In this document: in pieces, positions 38,022 through 59,801 of the stretch | Layout of the letters: each line of letters starts with the position of its first letter | Numbering within the stretch: the first letter of the stretch is position 1 | Virus record (IMG/VR): IMGVR_UViG_3300043811_000074 | Location: 1-64,000 of that record | DNA length: 64,000 nt | Strand: one strand, 5' to 3' | Origin: a virus | Translations under genes and position numbers: made by a program | The notes under the pieces: generated by a model | Database searches by the model: none | What the model was told of the DNA's origin: nothing | The model's input: only the letters and a program-made list of their open reading frames with translations

Positions 38022-39305
38022 ATGGTCGCTTTCGCGCGTTCTTACATCAAGTACCGGGACAAGCCTGGCAGTTTCATCAAACGACCGCACGCCGCCAGTC
38101 AGTCCTACGCGCCAGGGCAAATCTGCCGCGATTACAATTGGCCCAACGGCATCGCAGTACAACCGCTCACCATTGCCATCATGGAACTCGGTGGCCACTT
38201 CTACCCTTCCGACCTCTCGCCGTGGGCAGCGCGGGCCAATCTGCCGGTTCCCGTGGTCAATACTTTCATGCTGCCCGGCGCGGACGATTCGCCTTCGGAC
38301 GCTGACGGCGAGGTCATGTTAGATGTCTTTTGCGCTGCGCAGGCGTACTCTTCCGTCACCGGCCTGCCCGCGAAAATTCTCATCGTCTATGGCCCCAACA
38401 CGGGGCAGGCGTTCGCGGACATTACCGAATACTGCAACACGCTGACCGGCATCGGCTCCGGTTCCGGTTCGTGGGGCACGGCGGAAACCAACTCGGCAGA
38501 TTCAGACCGCGCCAACTTGGACGCACAACTGCAAAGAGCGCTGTTTCCGTGGCATTACGCCAGTGGCGACAATGGTTCCAATGATGGGACGAACACGCCG
38601 ACAGCCGATTGGCCTTCGTGCAGTCCTTACCTTGCCAGCTGTGGCGGCACGTCCAAGGTTCCCGGCTCGGGCGCGGAAACGGTCTGGAACAATGGCAATG
38701 GCGAGGGGACGGGCGGCGGCTTTTCCAAGTTCTACGGGCGCCCGATCTGGCAACCGGCGAACACTCAGGGCACAGGCCGCATGGTTCCCGATTGGGCAGC
38801 GGTCGCCGATCCGAACACCGGCTATGACACGCTCATCAATGGCAGCTGGCAAGTGATCGGCGGCACATCCGCCGTCGCTCCACTCTTGGCCGGGTTCATG
38901 TGCGCCGTCAACGGGGCGCGGCTCAAGCTGGGTCTGCCGATGATCGCGCAACCCAATCAAATGATCTGGTCGATGTTGAGCAGCTATTACGACATCATTT
39001 CCGGCTCCAATGGCGCGTACAACGCCGAAGCTGGGCCTGACCCCTGTTCCGGGGCCGGGCGGCCCACGGCAACCACGTTCGCCATGATGACCGGAGCCAG
39101 TCAGGTTCCGCCTGTGCTGCCGCCTCCGGTCAACTCCCCGCCCGTAAATCCGCCGCCTGCAACGCCGGCCTTTGTCCTGACCGTGCCGACGCCGATCAGG
39201 GCCGGGCAGACGTTCAAGATCAAGGCAGGCAAAGCAATCGCAGCAGGCAAGTACGATTGCTTCCCGTCAAGCGGCGCGGCGGACGCAGAAGTATTCGCCG
39301 ACTGA
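38022..39305 (+). CDS. S53 (sedolisin/kumamolisin-like) serine peptidase without a long propeptide
   Basis: EVMLD (Glu/Asp), ASGDNG, GGTSAVAP (Ser), DIISGSN...G.DPCSG.G Ca site. Confidence 0.9.
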   Translation: MVAFARSYIKYRDKPGSFIKRPHAASQSYAPGQICRDYNWPNGIAVQPLTIAIMELGGHFYPSDLSPWAARANLPVPVVNTFMLPGADDSPSDADGEVMLDVFCAAQAYSSVTGLPAKILIVYGPNTGQAFADITEYCNTLTGIGSGSGSWGTAETNSADSDRANLDAQLQRALFPWHYASGDNGSNDGTNTPTADWPSCSPYLASCGGTSKVPGSGAETVWNNGNGEGTGGGFSKFYGRPIWQPANTQGTGRMVPDWAAVADPNTGYDTLINGSWQVIGGTSAVAPLLAGFMCAVNGARLKLGLPMIAQPNQMIWSMLSSYYDIISGSNGAYNAEAGPDPCSGAGRPTATTFAMMTGASQVPPVLPPPVNSPPVNPPPATPAFVLTVPTPIRAGQTFKIKAGKAIAAGKYDCFPSSGAADAEVFAD

Positions 39306-39719: not shown

Positions 39720-39800
39720 GCTAGGCCGCATTCCGGTGGGAAACCGCTGGATTGTGGTTGCCCCGGTAAGTGCTGATAACACTCGCCGGGGTTTTCTTTG
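39720..39800 (+). ncRNA. Candidate antisense RNA to the transposase leader
   Basis: TTTCCG-17 nt-TAGAAT (39685-39713); hairpin CCCCGG..CCGGGG plus TTTTCTTT. Confidence 0.45.
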
Positions 39801-39801
39801 C

Positions 39802-39852
39802 GACTATAGTATTATAGACATTATCAACCACAATGTCCATAGTTCTATAGAC
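39802..39852 (-). promoter_or_regulatory. Transposase promoter overlapped by two 18-bp operator-like boxes
   Basis: TGGACA-17 nt-TATAAT on -; boxes GACTATAGTATTATAGAC and GTCCATAGTTCTATAGAC. Confidence 0.65.
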
Positions 39853-39875: not shown

Positions 39876-39967
39876 TACGGGGAGCGGGATTTGCACCCGC
39901 ACGGGCCTTTTGAGGGGGTTCCCACCGGTTCCCAAAACCGGCGCGTCTGCTGTTCCGCCATCCCCGC
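39876..39967 (-). tRNA. Atypical tRNA: Pro anticodon (TGG) on a Leu-like long-variable-arm body, no encoded CCA
   Basis: GCGGGGA TG GCG GAACAGCAGA CGC G CCGGT TTTGGGA ACCGG [24-nt V arm] GCGGG TGCAAAT CCCGC TCCCCGT A; all four stems pair. Confidence 0.8.
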
Positions 39968-39969
39968 GC

Positions 39970-40020
39970 AAAGAAAAAGCCAGCCAGGGAACGCACCGCG
40001 AACGATGGTTCCCAGCTGGC
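39970..40020 (-). terminator. Terminator immediately upstream of the tRNA
   Basis: GCCAGC-TGGGAAC..TTCG..GTTCCC-TGGCTGGC then TTTTTCTTT on -. Confidence 0.65.
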
Positions 40021-40122
40021 CGGGTTGGTTGGTTTTTGCCGCTGTGCGCGCACGAACGCGCACAGCGGTTTTTGTTGACAGTCAGACTTGAAGAATGGTG
40101 GGGAACGTGCTAAAGTAGAGAA

Positions 40123-52902: not shown

Positions 52903-53667
52903 TCAAGGTCCGTTGCGGAGATTTTCGAGAATCCGTCTGCCGATGTATTCGGCTACTTGCGGCACTACGGAATTTCCGAGACCTCTGTATCTGTCCAACC
53001 TATCGGGAAGCCCATCAACCACTCGACAAAGTTTGCTGTTGGGCAACCACCTTGTTCGATCTGGAAATGCAGCACAAGGTTGGCACTCGCCGGGCCACAG
53101 CCGAAGCCGAGCCGTTTGTTTCTCGCCTGTTTTTTCAAATGGGCCTCTTTGGAAAACCTCATTCGTTTCGCGTCGCTCGCCTGAGCGGTAGGCCACAATG
53201 AAAACTCTTTCTCTTTCGTGGGGCGCACCAAAAGCCTGCGCGGGTATAGTCTGCCATTCCGCATCAAACCCGATCTCGGAAAGATTTCCGAGAACAGTTC
53301 CAAGCCCCCGAAAAGTAAGAGCTGAGACGTTCTCCAAGATTGCGTATCGCGGTCGAATTGCGCCAAGAATCCGAGCAAATTCAAACCAGAGTCCAGAGCG
53401 TTCGTCGGCAAGTCCAGCTCCATTGTGATTTGCCCCACTAATTCCTTGACAAGGAAAACCGCCTGCAATCAAATCAACATCGCAATCCATGTTCGTCGGT
53501 GGGAAGGTTCGCACGTCATCCCATTTTGGAATTGCCGGCCAGTGTTTCTCCAACACGTTTCGGCAGAATGGATCAATCTCCACTTGCCAGGCGCACTTCA
53601 TCCCGGCGCGTTCCAAGCCTAAATCCATCCCGCCAATTCCAGCAAAGAGTGAACCAAACCGCATCAC
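52903..53667 (-). CDS. C5-cytosine DNA methyltransferase, alpha subunit (no motif IX)
   Basis: SLFAGIGG, GGFPCQ, ENV, RERVFIVA, LGNSVVPQ. Confidence 0.92.
   Translation of the reverse strand: MMRFGSLFAGIGGMDLGLERAGMKCAWQVEIDPFCRNVLEKHWPAIPKWDDVRTFPPTNMDCDVDLIAGGFPCQGISGANHNGAGLADERSGLWFEFARILGAIRPRYAILENVSALTFRGLGTVLGNLSEIGFDAEWQTIPAQAFGAPHERERVFIVAYRSGERRETNEVFQRGPFEKTGEKQTARLRLWPGECQPCAAFPDRTRWLPNSKLCRVVDGLPDRLDRYRGLGNSVVPQVAEYIGRRILENLRNGP
52965..53468 (-). CDS. C5 MTase beta subunit, encoded out of frame inside alpha
   Basis: SWRTSQ, FPRSGLMRNG, LWPTAQASD, and motif IX-like ANFVEWLMGFPIGWT; start uncertain. Confidence 0.75.
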   Translation of the reverse strand: MQAVFLVKELVGQITMELDLPTNALDSGLNLLGFLAQFDRDTQSWRTSQLLLFGGLELFSEIFPRSGLMRNGRLYPRRLLVRPTKEKEFSLWPTAQASDAKRMRFSKEAHLKKQARNKRLGFGCGPASANLVLHFQIEQGGCPTANFVEWLMGFPIGWTDTEVSEIP

Positions 53668-54165: not shown

Positions 54166-54238
54166 GAATTAACCGGCCTGGAAGCCACCGCCTGAAGAGC
54201 GGTGGAGGAAAGGCCGCTCCTAAAAATAACTACCGACC

Positions 54239-54267
54239 TTGCTAGGGAGCGCCGCGATCCCTATAAT
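54239..54267 (+). promoter_or_regulatory. tnpB promoter (leaderless)
   Basis: TTGCTA-17 nt-TATAAT, ATG 6 nt downstream. Confidence 0.65.
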
Positions 54268-54273
54268 CAAGCA

Positions 54274-55386
54274 ATGAAGCTAACGCTGCAACTCAAGCTG
54301 CTGCCCGATGCTGACCAAAGCGCCGCGCTGCTGGACACCATGCGCCGGTTCAACGCAGCCGCTTCTTTCGCTGCCGAACAGGGTTTTGCGGCTAGTGTTT
54401 TCTCCAAGCCGAGTATCCAAAAACTCTGTTACTACGATCTTCGCAAATATTTCAAGCTGTCCGCACAAATGGCCATTCGCGCCATTGCCAAAGCAGCAGA
54501 AGCGTTTGTCGCGAACAAGGCTGTTTGCCCTGAGTTTCGGCCTGACGGAGCAATGGCCTACGATGAACGAATCCTGTCCTTCAAAGACTGTCACCGCGTC
54601 AGCATCTTGACAGTGAGTCTCGGGCGCGTCCTCTTGCCCTACGTCTTCGGTGAGTATCAGGCAGCGAACCTTGATCGCATCCGTGGCCAGTGTGACCTTG
54701 TGTACCGGGACGGTAACTTTTTCCTCTATTGCACCATCGAATTTCAGGAAGCGCCGCCCGTTGAAGTTCGAGACTTCCTTGGCATCGACCTTGGCATCGT
54801 CAACATCGCCACGGATAGCGAAGGCGAAGCGTTCTCCGGCAAGACAGTTGACAGGAACCGCCGCCGCCGCCAGACCGCACGGAAGCAATACCAGCGGCGC
54901 GGAACCAAAAACGCCAAGCGCCGGCTCAAGCGTATGAGCGGACGGCAACGGCGTTTTCAAACATGGGTCAACCACGGCATTAGCAAGCAAGTGGTGATGA
55001 AAGCAAAGGCACTCGGCGTCGGGATCGGCTTGGAGGATTTGTCCTTCATCCGCTCGCGCATCGAGCCAACGGTTTCCAAACGCTTTCGCCGCCGCTTCGG
55101 GAATTGGGGTTTCTGCCAACTTCGGGCGTTCATTGAGTACAAGGCATTCCGCGAAGGCATTCCGGTCGTGACGGTCGATCCCCGCAACAGTAGCCGGACG
55201 TGCAGCGTCTGCGGCCACTGTGAGAAGGGCAACCGTCCCGATCAGGAAACCTTTCGCTGCAAACACTGCGATTTCTCCATGAATGCCGACTATAACGCTT
55301 CCCGGAACATCCGGGATTGGGCCAAAAGTAAACTGGCCTCAAAAATCGCGACTGCCCAGGTCAGTGATAAAGCCGTCTGCCTTTAG
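54274..55386 (+). CDS. tnpB: RNA-guided endonuclease TnpB
   Basis: GIDLG, GLEDL, SRTCSVCG, FRCKHC, NADYNA; RuvC D-E-D intact. Confidence 0.95.
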   Translation: MKLTLQLKLLPDADQSAALLDTMRRFNAAASFAAEQGFAASVFSKPSIQKLCYYDLRKYFKLSAQMAIRAIAKAAEAFVANKAVCPEFRPDGAMAYDERILSFKDCHRVSILTVSLGRVLLPYVFGEYQAANLDRIRGQCDLVYRDGNFFLYCTIEFQEAPPVEVRDFLGIDLGIVNIATDSEGEAFSGKTVDRNRRRRQTARKQYQRRGTKNAKRRLKRMSGRQRRFQTWVNHGISKQVVMKAKALGVGIGLEDLSFIRSRIEPTVSKRFRRRFGNWGFCQLRAFIEYKAFREGIPVVTVDPRNSSRTCSVCGHCEKGNRPDQETFRCKHCDFSMNADYNASRNIRDWAKSKLASKIATAQVSDKAVCL

Positions 55387-56468: not shown

Positions 56469-59400
56469 TTAAAATTCGCTGTCTGGTTGCGTGAATGTTG
56501 CCCGTCTCGCCTTGCCGAGTTTCACGAGCCGATCCCAGCATTCTTGTTTCAGGATGCCATGCACAAGCCGTAAATCTTGCGCCACGGCTTCAATCTCGTC
56601 ATTCGTTTTGGCCTTGTCCAGTTCGGCAGTTTTCTTTTTCTCGTAAGGTTCTGGCTCAAGTTTGGCGTCAATCATCTGTGACAGGTCATAGCCGCACTTG
56701 GCGCGTTCGGCAGGAACCCCTTTCCACTTGGCGAAATTCCTGGCTTTGAGCGAAGGTGGTTCGTGCGTCCATTGTCCTTCTTCAATTCGGTTGACGCGGG
56801 CCACTTCCTCAAACGGAGTTCGTTTCTTCAAGAGCGAGATGATTCTGCCAGCCTGTCCCTTGCTCAATATCTTGGTAATGTTCATGCCAAGGAACCTGAT
56901 GAATTTCTCTTGCGCCTCTGTTGCTTCTTTTGGCCCGGCATTGCTGCCAGTGCCAACATCGTGCGCCGTGTAGGTTGCTTCAGCATTCGCCTTGGCGCGG
57001 CGCTCGGCTTCTTTCTTGGCTTCACGTTCTGCCTGTTCCCGCTCCGCTTGCACCTTGGCCCGCGCGTCAGCATCCTCGCGCTGGGCCTGTCCAATGGCGT
57101 CCTCAACGCTCATTTCTTCTTCGGTGGCTTCATCGGCAAGAATCTCCGAAGCTCGGTCAACGATCTTATCCGGCAGTCCTTCCGCATAAATCATGACTGT
57201 TGAAGCGCAATCTGCTAGGCCGGTAATGCCCACGAGGTCAACGATCAGGGCATTGGGTTTTGAGGACGCGGCAATCGCGGCCAAGCGTTCCTCTCGTGTT
57301 GCCAGTCCGTTCAGCAGGCCGCGTAAAGGACGGCATGAGCGGCCCTTCATTTGTTCGGCAAGTGACGATGCCTTTTTGCTGACTGGCCGAAAGACGGCCA
57401 CGCACGCGATAGAGGGATCGTTGTAACCTTCGCGGCAAAGACCGCAGACAGACAGAAATTGAAACTTGCCCGATTGATGGTCAAGATAGACCTGTTTGCG
57501 TTCATGCTCTGGCGAAGCGCCGTCGAGTTCGCGGGCCTGATCGCCACTTTTGGTAATATCTGTTGGCTCCAACATCCGGCCACAAGCGCAGGCCGCGCCG
57601 TCGCCGATCAAAAGGCGCGGTTGCCACTTCACCAGACCGCAGGTGCATTTTGTTTCGACGCGGGCATTGATGAAGCGGGCGACGTTCTTGGCCATTTCCA
57701 CGCCGGGCGAAAAGATCAGCGTGCGCCGGTTCTCAACCATATCCAGGAGAGGCAACACCAGAGTTGCCAGCATTTTTTCTTCGCCGAGTTTTCTTTCGAG
57801 ATCGGCTTCGTCGAAGTCTTCTCCTAGCTTGGCGAGCGATTTGAAATCCACTCCCTCTACGTCGATGTATTTCTGGACGTAGGGTACAGCCCAGCCGTCT
57901 TTGACTCCGCAAGGCTTGCTCGGCGAGTAGAGCGGGTAATCGACCGCGATGCCGGGAAACATCTTGTCTCCCACGGACACTTGATCCCCCCGCTTCGGGG
58001 TCGCGGTCATGCCGGTGCGCCGGCTCTTGGGATTCTGTTCAAACCAATCGACGATATGCCCCACACTTGTTAGGTGATAAGCGTGCCGGTGCGCCTCATC
58101 GAATACGATCAGCCAGTTCAGCCGATTGTCGAATTTGTGCAGTCGGCTCCATGCGGCTCCATGCGCCTCTGGCTCGCGACACAGACGCGCAATTTCATCG
58201 CGCACGGCGTCCGCTTCGCCGCCGCGCTCCAGGTGTCTCAGGAATCTCTTGCAGGACCGCTCTGGGCAAGCGCCAAGGTCCATGACTCCATAACCGCCAA
58301 GCGATTCGATTTGTTCGGGTGTCGGTGGTTTGGCGCGGAGAAGTGACGCGCGGCTGACGACGGAGATTTTCGGAATGTCATCGGCGTCAATCGTGGCGGC
58401 GTCCATTTCGATGCCGGGTCGGATGCCGAGAACTTCTTCGATTTCTTGCGCGAATTGCCAGACAAGTTGCGTCTCGTAACTCACGACCATGCAGCGATAA
58501 TCCTCGCCGCGCCGGAGCCAGGTGTTCATCTTCATGCAGGCGCAAATAGTGTTGTGTGTTACCGTGAAGTCGCCAAGCAAAAATCGCCCGTCACCGGACA
58601 ACGTAAAGCCGAAGTATTCGCCTTCCCCGATTGGTTCAACGGCGAAACCAAACGACAGATGGTCTTTCTTCTGTTTTCGTGGGGCCGCTCTTTTTCTGGC
58701 AATGCGTGTTGGGATGACTGAGCAATCGCCGCTGATTGATACTCGCCAGTAGGTTCCGGTCGTGCCGTTGTTTGTGCAGGTCTTTTGGCATTCAGCAACA
58801 TAGGCGGCCAGTCCAAGCGAACGGGCCACGAACGCAACGTCCTCAGAGAGTCCCTTGATTTTGGAAATGTAATCGAATCCGCCGTGATGTTCGCATCCGT
58901 CCGTGTCCAGTAAACCGGCAAGAATTTGCAGGCGTGTTTCACGGCTTCCGGTCTTGTAGACGTGCGGAATCCGTTTGCCATCCTTGATCAAAAGTTTAAT
59001 CCAAGATAGGAGCGGATTCTCGTTGCCGTGATAACTGCCTTTCCGCAGCCGCCAAGTCGTTGCCTTTCCGCTTTTCATGCCTTCAACCTTGACCAAATCA
59101 AGGCAGAATTCGCTGGCTACGGTCGCAAGGGCATCGACTATTTCTTGATCGGCGGTTGTCACTTCAGGTTTTTTGAAAGTCCCGTCACCAAGCCAAACGC
59201 CAAGAAAGTAAGGATTGAGCAAAGGCACTTCGTGGTCGTGAAATTCGACCGCGACACGAAAGCCCTTCATGATGTGCTTGAAAGAGGAAGATTCCGCAAG
59301 GTACTTATCAAGCGAAATGTCAATCACCTGTCCCGGCTTCATCCCGCGAATCGTGTTGATCTTCTTGGAAAAATTGGTGGCCTTCAGGGTCAGAACATGA

Positions 59401-59801
59401 ACGTCGTTCACGACGAAAGGTTCTCCGCGATTTGGCGTGATCCGAAACAGTTGTCCGACTCCCTGATTAGTTCGGAGAACGCGGCGCGGCTTTGAATCTG
59501 GACCCATCAGTAAATCGCCGACAGCAATTTCCTCGACTGGCTTGATTGTCCCACTGAAGAGCATAACCATCGTGCCGCGTCCAAGACACTTTCCACCGCC
59601 TGTAAAAATCCGCGTCAGCGTGCCGAGTTCCCCGCCGTCCCATAGACGGAATGATTCGTCATGATCGGTCAGTTGGTAATCGCGGGCCACGATACCGGCG
59701 CGCGTCCCTGGCTCAAAAAGAGTTTCCATGTTCTCTCCTAGCCGACAAGCATATCGTATTGCCACTTGGGAACGCGCCCAACCTTCTGACAATCGCGGCA
59801 A
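56469..59801 (-). CDS. SF2 (DEAH/ResIII-like) helicase with intein
   Basis: RDYQ, TGGGK/T, DEAH, TATP.RGD, EGYNDP, QMKGR..R; start may be internal (METLF). Confidence 0.9.
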   Translation of the reverse strand: MPRLSEGWARSQVAIRYACRLGENMETLFEPGTRAGIVARDYQLTDHDESFRLWDGGELGTLTRIFTGGGKCLGRGTMVMLFSGTIKPVEEIAVGDLLMGPDSKPRRVLRTNQGVGQLFRITPNRGEPFVVNDVHVLTLKATNFSKKINTIRGMKPGQVIDISLDKYLAESSSFKHIMKGFRVAVEFHDHEVPLLNPYFLGVWLGDGTFKKPEVTTADQEIVDALATVASEFCLDLVKVEGMKSGKATTWRLRKGSYHGNENPLLSWIKLLIKDGKRIPHVYKTGSRETRLQILAGLLDTDGCEHHGGFDYISKIKGLSEDVAFVARSLGLAAYVAECQKTCTNNGTTGTYWRVSISGDCSVIPTRIARKRAAPRKQKKDHLSFGFAVEPIGEGEYFGFTLSGDGRFLLGDFTVTHNTICACMKMNTWLRRGEDYRCMVVSYETQLVWQFAQEIEEVLGIRPGIEMDAATIDADDIPKISVVSRASLLRAKPPTPEQIESLGGYGVMDLGACPERSCKRFLRHLERGGEADAVRDEIARLCREPEAHGAAWSRLHKFDNRLNWLIVFDEAHRHAYHLTSVGHIVDWFEQNPKSRRTGMTATPKRGDQVSVGDKMFPGIAVDYPLYSPSKPCGVKDGWAVPYVQKYIDVEGVDFKSLAKLGEDFDEADLERKLGEEKMLATLVLPLLDMVENRRTLIFSPGVEMAKNVARFINARVETKCTCGLVKWQPRLLIGDGAACACGRMLEPTDITKSGDQARELDGASPEHERKQVYLDHQSGKFQFLSVCGLCREGYNDPSIACVAVFRPVSKKASSLAEQMKGRSCRPLRGLLNGLATREERLAAIAASSKPNALIVDLVGITGLADCASTVMIYAEGLPDKIVDRASEILADEATEEEMSVEDAIGQAQREDADARAKVQAEREQAEREAKKEAERRAKANAEATYTAHDVGTGSNAGPKEATEAQEKFIRFLGMNITKILSKGQAGRIISLLKKRTPFEEVARVNRIEEGQWTHEPPSLKARNFAKWKGVPAERAKCGYDLSQMIDAKLEPEPYEKKKTAELDKAKTNDEIEAVAQDLRLVHGILKQECWDRLVKLGKARRATFTQPDSEF
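58551..59588 (-). mobile_element. Intein (Hint plus LAGLIDADG), 346 aa, in Walker A
   Basis: GGGK|CLGRGT...PYFLGVWLGDG...LAGLLDTDG...TVTHN|T. Confidence 0.93.

What the first reader, a model, noticed from the sequence alone, without database searches (positions are those of the whole stretch)
39876..39967. Chimeric tRNA: proline anticodon on a leucine-type body
Seen: full cloverleaf with a Pro-type loop TT-TGG-GA, but a 3-bp Leu-like D stem (GCG GAACAGCAGA CGC), a 24-nt variable arm, A73 and G1-U72. The D loop has AG for GG and the T loop TGC for TTC, which looks compensatory. Known: bacterial ProRS needs G72/A73 and tRNA-Pro has a short variable loop; LeuRS largely ignores the anticodon and reads A73 and the tertiary core; allo-tRNAs with mismatched identity exist but have 8/4 or 9/3 folds, whereas this is 7/5. 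Inference: a natural missense tRNA inserting Leu (or Ser) at CCA/CCG.
Basis: partly seen in the sequence, partly recalled or inferred. Interest (0 to 1): 0.88.

Follow-up and report, generated by a model that had tools for sequence, protein, structure and literature searches.

The report
Orphan leucine-type tRNA with proline anticodon
A soil phage carries one intact transfer RNA that is built like a leucine tRNA but reads proline codons; it belongs to a widespread family, apparently not in print, that usually rides inside jumping genes, and here it sits alone without its usual partner gene.

Summary
Window 39876-39967 (- strand) is a 92-nt, 7/5, class II tRNA with anticodon UGG, A73, G1-U72 and a 24-nt variable region. 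It is the only tRNA on a complete 72.7-kb phage contig.

It is not a one-off. I found 35 distinct Leu-bodied UGG tRNAs with strong stem covariation. Of these, 17 lie next to an IS1595-family transposase. In those elements CCA, the codon matching the anticodon, sits at a few fixed transposase columns.

Earlier agents of this scan reported the same family on other DNA. Five literature searches found no paper on it.

This phage has no IS1595 transposase. Its own CCA codons behave as ordinary proline codons. The copy is therefore a solo one, lying directly behind a terminator hairpin.

The body and sister tRNAs with UUA, UGC and GGA anticodons favour charging by LeuRS, but Leu versus Pro is not settled. 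The transposase columns give conflicting hints.

Verdict: a real, interesting solo member of a new variant of mismatched-identity tRNAs. Its role in this phage is unproven.

The parts
39876..39967 (-). Whole tRNA gene: 92 nt, class II, 7/5 fold, anticodon UGG, discriminator A73 at 39876, no encoded CCA
   Evidence: ARAGORN; Rfam RF00005 48.9 bits; family model R1 87.8 bits
39961..39967 (-). Acceptor stem 5' strand GCGGGGA. It pairs with 39877-39883 (UCCCCGU), and the first pair is G1-U72
   Evidence: Read. G-U at 1:72 occurs in 2 of 34 family members, this copy and L367
39943..39958 (-). D arm GCGG AACAGCAG ACGC: 3-bp stem, Leu-type, with AG where canonical tRNAs have G18G19
   Evidence: The same D arm occurs in L358, L219 and L294. 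AG in the D loop goes with a TGC T loop in 39 of 44 tRNAs
39925..39941 (-). Anticodon arm CCGGU UUUGGGA ACCGG. The anticodon UGG is at 39932-39934, with U33 and G37
   Evidence: L367 has an identical anticodon arm
39901..39924 (-). Variable region of 24 nt, UGGGAACCCCCUCAAAAGGCCCGU: outer GGG/CCC stem and a possible inner CC/GG stem with a 5' bulge
   Evidence: L379 and L358 have a similar architecture. Outer-stem pairs are paired in 88.3% of cells across the family
39884..39900 (-). T arm GCGGG UGCAAAU CCCGC, with G at position 55 instead of U
   Evidence: The exact 17-mer recurs in 21 ARAGORN-called phage tRNAs of many isotypes
39970..40020 (-). Strong hairpin plus U-run (TTTTTCTTT) that ends 2 nt before the tRNA 5' end. 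It looks like an intrinsic terminator or leader hairpin
   Evidence: Read. Fold of the 60 nt upstream gives -30.7 kcal/mol, z -4.5. A comparable hairpin (z at most -2) lies upstream of 19 of 35 family members
40038..40069 (.). Second, palindromic hairpin further upstream of the tRNA. It is terminator-like on the + strand
   Evidence: 13 pairs, 10 of them G-C, pair I4
39811..39839 (-). Promoter-like site TGGACA-17-TATAAT just downstream of the tRNA, pointing away from it. It is context, not part of the tRNA
   Evidence: 11 of 12 matches. The scan found 5 sites in the region, against a mean of 0.6 in shuffles
39760..39802 (+). Terminator hairpin on the + strand that closes the operon ending with the S53-like protease gene. 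Its tail TTTTCTTTGCG is the inverted copy of the tail of the hairpin before the tRNA
   Evidence: Read; inverted repeat I1 (21 nt, 81% complementary)

Best explanation
This is a real, structurally intact tRNA gene with a leucine-type class II body and the proline anticodon UGG. It is a solo copy from a widespread family of Leu-bodied tRNAs with non-leucine anticodons.

The usual home of that family is an IS1595-family insertion sequence. There the tRNA's anticodon matches a codon kept at a few fixed places in the transposase gene. In this complete 72.7-kb soil phage there is no such transposase. The phage's own CCA codons are normal proline codons. The gene lies in a non-conserved intergenic spot, directly behind a terminator-like hairpin.

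Most likely it arrived as mobile-element cargo, or as a small cassette, and now stands alone.

If it is transcribed and processed, the most likely charging enzyme is LeuRS. Bacterial LeuRS does not read the anticodon; it uses A73 and the D/T-loop core (established knowledge for E. coli LeuRS, recalled). The tRNA would then read CCA, and probably CCG, as leucine in competition with the host's tRNA-Pro(UGG), presumably at a low level.

Shown here: the gene and its fold, family membership, the IS1595 link of its relatives, the absence of the partner in this phage, and the ordinary proline use of CCA in the phage. Inferred, not shown: expression, charging with Leu, and whether the phage gains anything from it.
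For: Gene and fold.

Complete phage:
- 127-bp terminal overlap
- CheckV estimate of 100% complete, with direct terminal repeats
- tape-measure and head-protease hits, and large terminase

Family:
- One pattern (Leu-type D arm plus the UUUGGG loop) found 35 distinct well-formed tRNAs in viral, genome and metagenome collections. Two further rows were dropped as malformed.
- On 34 of them, 98.2% of pair cells are paired and 19 of 23 pairs show changes on both sides. The covariation score is 0.694 against 0.176 in shuffles, with 0 of 500 shuffles as high. Slid controls score at most 0.158.

Leu-type body: plus a D arm shared with phage Leu tRNAs.

An extra tRNA, not the cell's tRNA-Pro: the Terriglobia MAG that holds relative L219 has 71 tRNAs. 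These include canonical Pro(UGG), Pro(CGG), Pro(GGG) and all Leu isoacceptors.

IS1595 link:
- 17 of 35 distinct tRNAs (20 of 38 loci) have a PF12762 plus PF12760 transposase in the held stretch. The two genes are mostly tail to tail, 1-100 nt apart.
- Searching from the transposase side, 18 of 80 viral IS1595 loci hold a Leu-type tRNA above 50 bits. Their anticodons are UGG x11, AGG x2, UGC x2, UUA x2 and GGA x1.

Codon match:
- Column 479: CCA in 15 of 20 UGG elements, CCT in one AGG element, TAA in both UUA elements.
- Column 262: CCA in 12 of 20 UGG elements.

Solo state: the best tblastn hit of 11 transposases against the whole phage has E 0.013. Similarity to relatives is confined to the tRNA itself: L358 83% over 77 nt, L367 81%, L379 78% over 100 nt.

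CCA in the phage: 183 codons, 10.2 per 1000, spread over the genes. In the helicase, 11 CCA sites align with Pro in a mean 0.52 of homologues and with Leu in 0.02.

Charging by LeuRS: sister tRNAs with UUA and UGC anticodons keep A73 and lack G3-U70. No anticodon-reading synthetase, and not AlaRS, would be expected to take them.
Against: - Nothing here measures expression or charging.
- G35, G36, G37 and A73 are all bacterial ProRS determinants (recalled), and this copy has the full tRNA-Pro-like loop UUUGGGA. All 11 UGG tRNAs from the transposase-first search have A37 instead.
- Four of the 34 aligned family members (5 of the 35 distinct tRNAs) have C1-G72, the bacterial tRNA-Pro hallmark.
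- Transposase column 262 is Pro, coded CCG or CCT, in elements whose tRNAs read other codons. CCA there may therefore simply mean proline.
- Column 479 is not a conserved leucine. In the 59 loci where the model found no Leu-type tRNA it reads P 18, T 12, S 7, I 7, C 5, A 3, K 2, V 2, M 1, L 1, with 3 not parsed.
- All four distinct G37-type UGG tRNAs found in viral contigs are solo: this one, L190, L206 and the L202 group. That could mean phages keep them for a purpose and they are not relics.
- No remnant of a transposase, no terminal inverted repeats and no flank similarity document a past insertion sequence here.
Confidence: 0.55

Rival explanations
1. It is a working proline tRNA of unusual shape. 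ProRS charges it through G35, G36, G37 and A73. The phage keeps it to boost decoding of CCA, which it uses at 10.2 per 1000 codons.
For: - The anticodon loop UUUGGGA and A73 are present.
- CCA is a common, ordinary proline codon in the phage.
- Four of the 34 aligned relatives (5 of the 35 distinct tRNAs) have C1-G72.
- Transposase column 262 is a conserved Pro that UGG elements always write as CCA.
- Solo copies recur in viral contigs.
Against: - Position 72 is U, not G.
- The A15/U48 pairing and the long variable arm are Leu-type, not Pro-type.
- Class II synthetases such as ProRS approach the tRNA from the variable-loop side (general knowledge, recalled), so a 24-nt arm may hinder binding.
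- Sister tRNAs with UUA, UGC and GGA anticodons on the same body cannot be explained by anticodon-driven charging.
- A terminator-like hairpin right before the gene is odd for a helper tRNA.
Confidence: 0.22
2. One reading: the phage deliberately uses a stand-alone missense tRNA to put Leu (or Ser) at CCA/CCG, for example to damage host proteins or diversify its own.
For: - The body is Leu-type and the anticodon is a proline one.
- The gene is intact, with all stems paired.
- It is the only tRNA the phage carries.
- Solo copies occur in other viral contigs.
Against: - The phage's own 183 CCA codons would be hit too, and they sit at proline positions.
- The family's usual context is a transposon, not a phage function.
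- The three phage records that share the neighbouring protease module have no such tRNA, though they are only distant relatives.
- Ser identity is unlikely: A73, C2-G71 and a Leu-type D arm.
Confidence: 0.1
3. The RNA does not work in translation. It might be a tRNA-shaped regulatory or structural RNA, a decoy for host tRNA-cutting defences, or a recombination or attachment site.
For: - Mukai et al. [quoted passage not shown]
- The elbow variant of AG in the D loop with G55 recurs in phage tRNAs.
- More than 80 viral loci hold tRNA-like elements with the same D and T arms but no anticodon arm.
Against: - This copy keeps a perfect anticodon arm with U33 and a purine at 37, plus A73.
- The family shows covariation in all four stems, the anticodon stem included.
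- The anticodon matches fixed codons in the partner transposases. That points to decoding.
- No integrase was seen among the 40 phage proteins I scanned. Not all ORFs were scanned.
Confidence: 0.08

Closest known systems
Allo-tRNAs and 'polycistrons of irregular tRNAs' of Acidobacteria and soil metagenomes (Mukai et al. 2017, PMC5389517; review PMC7609411). I read passages found by term search.
   Same: - Natural bacterial and phage tRNAs with a long variable arm
- The anticodon does not match the identity set of the body
- Soil and Acidobacteria setting
- A stated possible link to transposable elements
   Different: - Allo-tRNAs have an 8/4 or 9/3 acceptor/T geometry and mostly Ser identity. 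This one is 7/5 with a Leu-type D arm and A73.
- The words 'proline', 'UGG' and 'IS1595' do not occur in the 2017 paper.
Nematode nev-tRNAs (Hamashima et al. 2012, PMC3333845, abstract read; 2015, PMC4300185, search listing only)
   Same: - Class II tRNAs derived from tRNA-Leu with anticodons for other amino acids (Gly, Ile)
- Charged only with leucine in vitro, and decode GGG as Leu in vitro
- This is the best model for how the tRNA here would work
   Different: - They are eukaryotic nuclear genes, with other anticodons and no mobile-element context.
- It is a resemblance in mechanism, not membership.
Bacterial tRNA-Leu(UAG)
   Same: - Class II fold and A73
- 3-bp D stem, with the D arm GCGGAA...AGACGC
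- The two-base GU spacer before the T stem
- G37
- One transition, A35 to G, turns UAG into UGG
   Different: - The anticodon reads proline codons.
- The variable region is 24 nt, against 13-17 nt in the ordinary phage and MAG Leu tRNAs seen here.
- AG in the D loop and G55 in the T loop replace the canonical GG and U55.
- The first pair is G1-U72.
tRNA-ProA with ProRSx in Streptomyces and Kitasatospora (Schuntermann et al. 2023, PMC10404621; search listing only; details recalled)
   Same: A natural bacterial tRNA whose body identity and anticodon disagree, giving programmed mistranslation.
   Different: - The logic is opposite: a Pro body with an Ala- or Thr-type anticodon, paired with a dedicated synthetase.
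- No dedicated synthetase lies near the tRNA here.
bldA tRNA-Leu(UAA) and rare TTA codons in Streptomyces (recalled, no call)
   Same: A single tRNA gates the translation of genes that keep a rare matching codon. This is the logic suggested by the fixed CCA codons in the IS1595 transposases.
   Different: - bldA is a cognate Leu tRNA reading a Leu codon.
- No partner gene with such codons exists in this phage.

Membership tests
Bacterial tRNA-Leu (LeuRS substrates) | Class II fold with a long variable arm and a 3-bp D stem | tested here: met
   ARAGORN drawing; 24-nt variable region
Bacterial tRNA-Leu (LeuRS substrates) | Discriminator A73 | tested here: met
   A at 39876. All 34 aligned family members have A73
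Bacterial tRNA-Leu (LeuRS substrates) | Canonical G18G19 in the D loop with U55/C56 in the T loop | tested here: not met
   The D loop has AG and the T loop is UGCAAAU. The pair of changes covaries in phage tRNAs, 39 of 44, so the contact may be kept in another form
Bacterial tRNA-Leu (LeuRS substrates) | Leucine anticodon (NAG or YAA) | tested here: not met
   The anticodon is UGG
Bacterial tRNA-Leu (LeuRS substrates) | Aminoacylation by LeuRS | not testable with these tools
   Needs a charging assay
Bacterial tRNA-Pro | Anticodon NGG with G37 | tested here: met
   Anticodon loop UUUGGGA
Bacterial tRNA-Pro | C1-G72 with A73 | tested here: not met
   The first pair is G1-U72, although A73 is present. 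The canonical Pro tRNAs of MAG G001 all start with C and end ...GACCA
Bacterial tRNA-Pro | Class I body: short variable loop and 4-bp D stem, about 77 nt | tested here: not met
   92 nt with a 24-nt variable region. Body score against canonical Pro(UGG) is 9, against 20-27 for three of the five canonical Leu tRNAs (UAG 11, CAA 10)
Allo-tRNA (Mukai et al. 2017) | 8/4 or 9/3 acceptor/T-stem geometry | tested here: not met
   7-bp acceptor stem and 5-bp T stem
Allo-tRNA (Mukai et al. 2017) | Long variable arm, with an anticodon unrelated to the identity of the body | tested here: met
IS1595-associated Leu-type tRNAs with non-Leu anticodons (not found in print; seen by earlier agents of this scan) | Leu-type 7/5 class II body, A73, non-leucine anticodon | tested here: met
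   Model R1 scores 87.8 bits, and the model includes this sequence
IS1595-associated Leu-type tRNAs with non-Leu anticodons (not found in print; seen by earlier agents of this scan) | IS1595-family transposase (PF12762 plus PF12760) next to the tRNA | tested here: not met
   tblastn of 11 transposases against the whole 72,720-bp phage gives a best E of 0.013. Relatives have the transposase in 17 of 35 cases
IS1595-associated Leu-type tRNAs with non-Leu anticodons (not found in print; seen by earlier agents of this scan) | A partner gene that keeps the matching codon at fixed positions | tested here: not met
   There is no partner gene. CCA is common (183 codons) and sits at proline positions in the phage
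IS1595-associated Leu-type tRNAs with non-Leu anticodons (not found in print; seen by earlier agents of this scan) | Stable hairpin directly upstream of the tRNA | tested here: met
   -30.7 kcal/mol, z -4.5, ending 10 nt before the tRNA in the fold. 19 of 35 members have z at most -2

The most novel reading that the evidence does not exclude
The solo tRNA is a working, leucine-charged reader of CCA that mobile DNA spreads as a portable 'private code' key. In insertion sequences it decodes two or three sentinel codons of the transposase. Carried alone by a phage, it would switch on, or poison, such sentinel-bearing genes of resident elements or of the host during infection. Mobile elements would then control each other, and the host proteome, by locally bending the genetic code.
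Probability: 0.18. Interest if true: 0.9.

Novelty: new variant of a known kind. Interest (0 to 1): 0.62.

Why it matters
Natural tRNAs whose body and anticodon disagree are rare. They are prized as evidence on how the genetic code can bend, and as parts for code engineering.

A 7/5 leucine-type tRNA with a proline anticodon, found in bacteria and phages, linked to IS1595 transposons and matched to fixed codons in their transposase genes, is in none of the papers my five searches returned. If these tRNAs carry leucine, mobile DNA would be spreading a source of Pro-to-Leu misreading across several phyla.

This phage copy shows that the tRNA can travel and persist without its transposase. It is a compact, intact sequence that can be tested at once: a charging assay, and a CCA reporter read out by mass spectrometry.

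If it turns out to carry proline, it would be the first class II-shaped tRNA-Pro I know of (recalled). That would be of interest for synthetase recognition.

Tried and rejected
- **DNA similarity of 7 kb around the tRNA.** The phage collection gave only 13 weak hits, all to the methyltransferase gene. The plasmid collection gave none.
- **Pattern TGGCGGAA...GGTGCAAATCC.** It found no tRNA that ARAGORN calls. It turned up a separate tRNA-like family, listed under things noticed.
- **An anticodon-free metagenome scan of the subfamily.** I used an anticodon-free viral scan and a transposase-first search instead.
- **Terminal inverted repeats around five tRNA-plus-transposase pairs.** None were convincing, so the insertion-sequence ends are not defined.
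- **Flank similarity between this window and relatives.** None was found outside the tRNA.
- **Inferring the inserted amino acid from transposase columns.** Inconclusive.
  - Column 376 has CCA where others have I, L, V or M, but in only 3 related elements.
  - Column 262 is a conserved Pro.
  - Column 479 is variable, and the loci labelled 'no tRNA' may carry other tRNAs that my model cannot see.
- **Relatives of the phage.**
  - A single-protein search with the neighbouring protease found none in viral contigs.
  - A profile search found 36 loci. The best three records share only the protease and cytochrome module.
  - The terminase matches 1 of those 3 records, weakly (E 5e-4).
  - Their lack of any R1 match therefore says little about this phage's lineage.
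- **Sequencing runs.** One DNA holder was listed, a soil metagenome that may be the source. No RNA holder was listed. I did not lay reads.
- **Supplementary files of papers were not opened.** The supplements of Mukai et al. 2017 may list irregular 7/5 tRNAs that bear on the claim 'not in print'.
- **tRNAscan-SE isotype models are not on hand.** One search is a crude stand-in.
- **Not all phage ORFs were scanned against family libraries.** I scanned 40 proteins.
Full report
**What is there.**
ARAGORN finds exactly one tRNA in the window and in the whole contig: tRNA-Pro(tgg), complement 39876-39967, 92 nt. Rfam's tRNA model scores it 48.9 bits against a gathering score of 29, end to end.

Read on the minus strand, the parts are:
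- acceptor GCGGGGA/UCCCCGU, with G1-U72
- U8, G9
- D arm GCGG-AACAGCAG-ACGC, with a 3-bp stem
- G26
- anticodon arm CCGGU-UUUGGGA-ACCGG
- a 24-nt variable region, UGGGAACCCCCUCAAAAGGCCCGU
- T arm GCGGG-UGCAAAU-CCCGC
- discriminator A73, with no encoded CCA

**The setting.**
The window is the first 64 kb of a single 72,720-bp contig with a 127-bp terminal overlap. IMG/VR classes it as having direct terminal repeats, and CheckV estimates it as 100% complete.

It is a phage:
- tape-measure, head-protease and head-decoration hits
- large terminase
- two N-type DNA methyltransferases and a C5 methylase
- RusA

The only sequencing run that holds the region is a soil metagenome.

On the tRNA's strand the order is as follows:
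1. a 146-aa gene with no family hit (40680-40240)
2. a palindromic hairpin (40069-40038)
3. a strong hairpin with a U-run (40020-39970) that ends 2 nt before the tRNA
4. the tRNA
5. a near-consensus promoter-like site pointing onward (39839-39811)

**The elbow variant is a recurrent phage trait.**
In 21 of them it lies in an ARAGORN-called tRNA: Met, Cys, Gly, Ile, Thr, Glu or Leu.

Over all unique tRNAs called in loci L001-L200, a TTC T loop goes with GG in the D loop in 194 of 194. A TGC T loop goes with AG and no GG in 39 of 44. It is not special to this tRNA.

**The Leu body with a UGG anticodon is a family.**

After I required a 7-bp acceptor, a 5-bp T stem and a 5-bp anticodon stem, 37 distinct sequences remained. 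Of these, 35 are well formed. All have A73. Sixteen have variable regions of 21-38 nt, far longer than the 13-17 nt of ordinary Leu tRNAs seen here.

On 34 of them the cloverleaf is paired in 98.2% of cells. Nineteen of 23 pairs show changes on both sides. The covariation score is 0.694, against 0.176 in shuffles (0 of 500 as high) and at most 0.158 when the partners are slid.

The nearest relatives of the window's copy are:
- L358: same D arm, similar variable arm, but C1-G72
- L367/L382: identical anticodon arm, and also G1-U72
- L379
- L219/L294

Identity is 75-83% and is confined to the tRNA.

One caution applies. The pattern fixed the anticodon and G37. An anticodon-free viral scan of the AG-type D arm gave ordinary Leu tRNAs: GAG x4, CAA x2, UAA and UAG, all 81-88 nt. 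It gave only two UGG tRNAs, this one and L190, and those were the two with long arms.

**It is an extra tRNA, with a Leu body.**
The Terriglobia MAG that holds L219 has 71 tRNA matches. These include canonical Pro(UGG), Pro(CGG) and Pro(GGG) of 77-78 nt with C1-G72, and all five Leu isoacceptors. The class II UGG tRNA comes on top of a full set.

I compared the window's tRNA with that set, leaving out the anticodon and variable arms. The best matches are the MAG's own class II UGG tRNA (30), Leu(GAG) (27), Leu(UAA) (23) and Leu(CAG) (20). Canonical Pro(UGG) scores 9, Ser tRNAs at most 14 and Tyr at most 5.

**The family's usual home is an IS1595 insertion sequence.**
An all-against-all comparison of ORFs around the tRNAs gave one large cluster, present in 19 of 38 loci. 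One more locus was found by tblastn. That makes 17 of 35 distinct tRNAs.

The protein is an IS1595-family transposase, with PF12762 at E 1e-33 to 1e-42 plus the PF12760 zinc ribbon. Most pairs are tail to tail, 1-100 nt apart.

I found this link before reading the scan's earlier notes. Those notes report the same family on other DNA at least ten times, and one of them is marked 'part of it fell'.

Going the other way, a profile of ten transposases found 241 relatives in viral contigs, and the best 80 were kept. My covariance model R1 found a Leu-type tRNA above 50 bits in 18 of the 80. Their anticodons are UGG x11 (all with A37), AGG x2, UGC x2, UUA x2 and GGA x1, and all have A73.

**Codon matching.**
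I aligned 30 transposases with their codons. The codon complementary to each element's anticodon piles up in five columns.
- Column 479, the residue after the C-terminal GKRLxYxx motif:
  - CCA in 15 of 20 UGG elements
  - CCT in one of two AGG elements
  - TAA in both UUA elements
  - Leu or Met codons in four others
- Column 262, the P of RIRxAMxxEP(L/M/V): CCA in 12 of 20 UGG elements and CCT in the same AGG element.
- Column 97: CCA in 9 elements.

Several transposases have only two or three CCA codons in all, and every one of them sits at these columns. Their other prolines are mostly CCG.

I therefore confirm that these transposase genes keep the codon their tRNA reads at fixed places.

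**Which amino acid?**
This is not settled.

For Leu:
- The body is Leu-type. Bacterial LeuRS ignores the anticodon (recalled, E. coli work).
- Sisters with UUA and UGC anticodons have A73 and no G3-U70, so body-driven charging is the simplest common explanation.
- At column 376, three related UGG elements have CCA where the others have I, L, V or M.
- Nematode nev-tRNAs are a precedent for Leu charging of such chimeras (PMC3333845, abstract).

For Pro:
- G35, G36, G37 and A73 are ProRS determinants (recalled).
- Four of the 34 aligned members (5 of the 35 distinct tRNAs) have C1-G72.
- Column 262 is Pro, written CCG or CCT, in elements with unrelated tRNAs.
- Column 479 is variable across the 59 loci where my model found no Leu-type tRNA: P 18, T 12, S 7, I 7, C 5, A 3, K 2, V 2, M 1, L 1, and 3 not parsed. 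Those loci may hold other kinds of tRNA, so they are not a clean control.

**This copy stands alone.**
- Eleven transposases searched against the whole phage by tblastn give nothing better than E 0.013.
- There is no flank similarity to any relative and no convincing element ends.
- The phage is not recoded. CCA occurs 183 times, 10.2 per 1000 codons and 18% of Pro codons, spread across the genes.
- In the intein-bearing SF2 helicase, aligned with 36 homologues, 11 CCA sites align with Pro in a mean 0.52 of homologues and with Leu in 0.02. That is much like CCG (0.73 Pro), CCT (0.67) and CCC (0.87). Leu codons align with Leu in 0.59-0.71.
- The other G37-type UGG tRNAs found in viral contigs (L190, L206 and the L202 group) also lack a transposase in the held stretch. 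Solo copies in phages therefore recur.
- Three phage records share the neighbouring protease and cytochrome module, and none has an R1 match. They are only distant relatives, since the terminase matches 1 of 3 weakly. Whether this phage's own lineage keeps the tRNA is unknown.

**Literature.**
- Searches for IS1595 with tRNA or 'long variable arm', and for IS1595 with 'anticodon', returned nothing on such a link.
- Searches for 'proline anticodon' with LeuRS, mistranslation or 'variable arm', and for ProRSx, did not either.
- A search for phrases such as 'tRNA cargo' and 'transposon-encoded tRNA' returned no paper at all.
- Mukai et al. 2017 does not contain 'proline', 'UGG' or 'IS1595'. It does link some allo-tRNAs to transposon-related genes.
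- A 2024 review of mistranslating tRNAs contains none of 'transpos', 'phage', 'allo-tRNA' or 'nev-tRNA'.
- Supplements were closed.

**Verdict.**
The feature is a real, intact, solo member of a Leu-bodied, proline-reading tRNA family whose normal context is an IS1595 transposon.

It is unproven, and it missed the mobile-element origin. In this phage the tRNA has no matched partner and no evident need, so stranded cargo is my leading reading at 0.55. A true proline-carrying helper tRNA is the main rival at 0.22.

Noticed in passing
L081-L200 (for example L084:1820-1884, L100:1534-1611, L087:264-344): More than 80 viral loci, many of them prophages of isolate genomes, hold a tRNA-like element. 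It has a 7-bp acceptor-like stem, the D arm GUGGCGGAAUAGGUAGACGC, a 30-55-nt middle with no anticodon arm, and a T arm ending GGUGCAAAUCC. ARAGORN calls none of them. Rfam has no match for them at the gathering score in the 15 loci tried, nor at E up to 1 in L084. In L084 the element lies beside a ROOL RNA.
   Followed up: partly
Loci L001-L200; in the window 39884-39900 and 39943-39958: Phage tRNAs of many isotypes carry a paired change at the elbow. A T loop UGC (G55) goes with AG instead of GG in the D loop in 39 of 44. A TTC T loop goes with GG in 194 of 194. This could be a phage way to alter the D/T-loop contact.
   Followed up: partly
L664:4112-4195, L688:4124-4205, L630:991-1075, L631:423-506, L658:3764-3847, L629:2229-2329, L654:3508-3591: Leu-type tRNAs beside IS1595 transposases in viral contigs carry the anticodons UUA (reads the stop codon UAA), UGC (Ala codon GCA), GGA (Ser) and AGG (Pro). 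In both UUA elements the transposase frame has TAA exactly at the column where UGG elements have CCA.
   Followed up: partly
window 56469-59801 (-): The SF2 helicase of 1110 aa appears to hold an intein. Homologues carry Hint and homing-endonuclease families (PF05203, PF05204, PF14528). Other homologues, of about 740-765 aa, cover about 63% of the query.
   Followed up: no
window 54202-55386 (+) and 52903-53667 (-): A TnpB-like gene (OrfB_IS605 plus the Cas12f1-like TNB domain) lies about 0.5 kb from a C5 DNA methylase gene. The methylase matches only profile positions 1-175 of 324, so it may be truncated. This is another mobile element in the same phage.
   Followed up: no
G001:C2:2594723-2597771 (locus L584 and neighbours): The Terriglobia MAG has about 25 tRNA genes within 3 kb that duplicate most isotypes, some with odd shapes, for example a 98-nt 'Leu(gag)' and a 92-nt Tyr. 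It is probably a mobile tRNA array.
   Followed up: no
L228, L238, L245, L250, L267, L286 (Ruminococcus, Lachnospiraceae and Oscillospiraceae MAG contigs): The 5' half of a Leu-type tRNA, up to the loop UUUGGG, is repeated 2-5 times per contig at spacings of 107-3279 nt. What follows is a non-tRNA sequence rather than the rest of the tRNA.
   Followed up: no
window 39733-39748 versus 39913-39928; 39782-39802 versus 39967-39987: Two inverted repeats touch the tRNA. One is a 16-nt match (88%) between the tRNA's anticodon-stem and variable-arm segment and a site 130 nt downstream. An RNA made from the promoter-like site at 39839-39811 would be partly antisense to the tRNA there. The other is a 21-nt repeat (81%) formed by the tails of the two terminators that bracket the 164-nt stretch holding the tRNA. 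Either could be chance.
   Followed up: no
window 38022-39305 (+): The protein next to the tRNA has no Pfam or PHROG hit of its own. It has many homologues that JGI names kumamolisin or subtilase, at 52-64% identity on contigs of 63-116 kb. It lies after a cytochrome-like gene set that is partly shared with viral record L700.
   Followed up: partly
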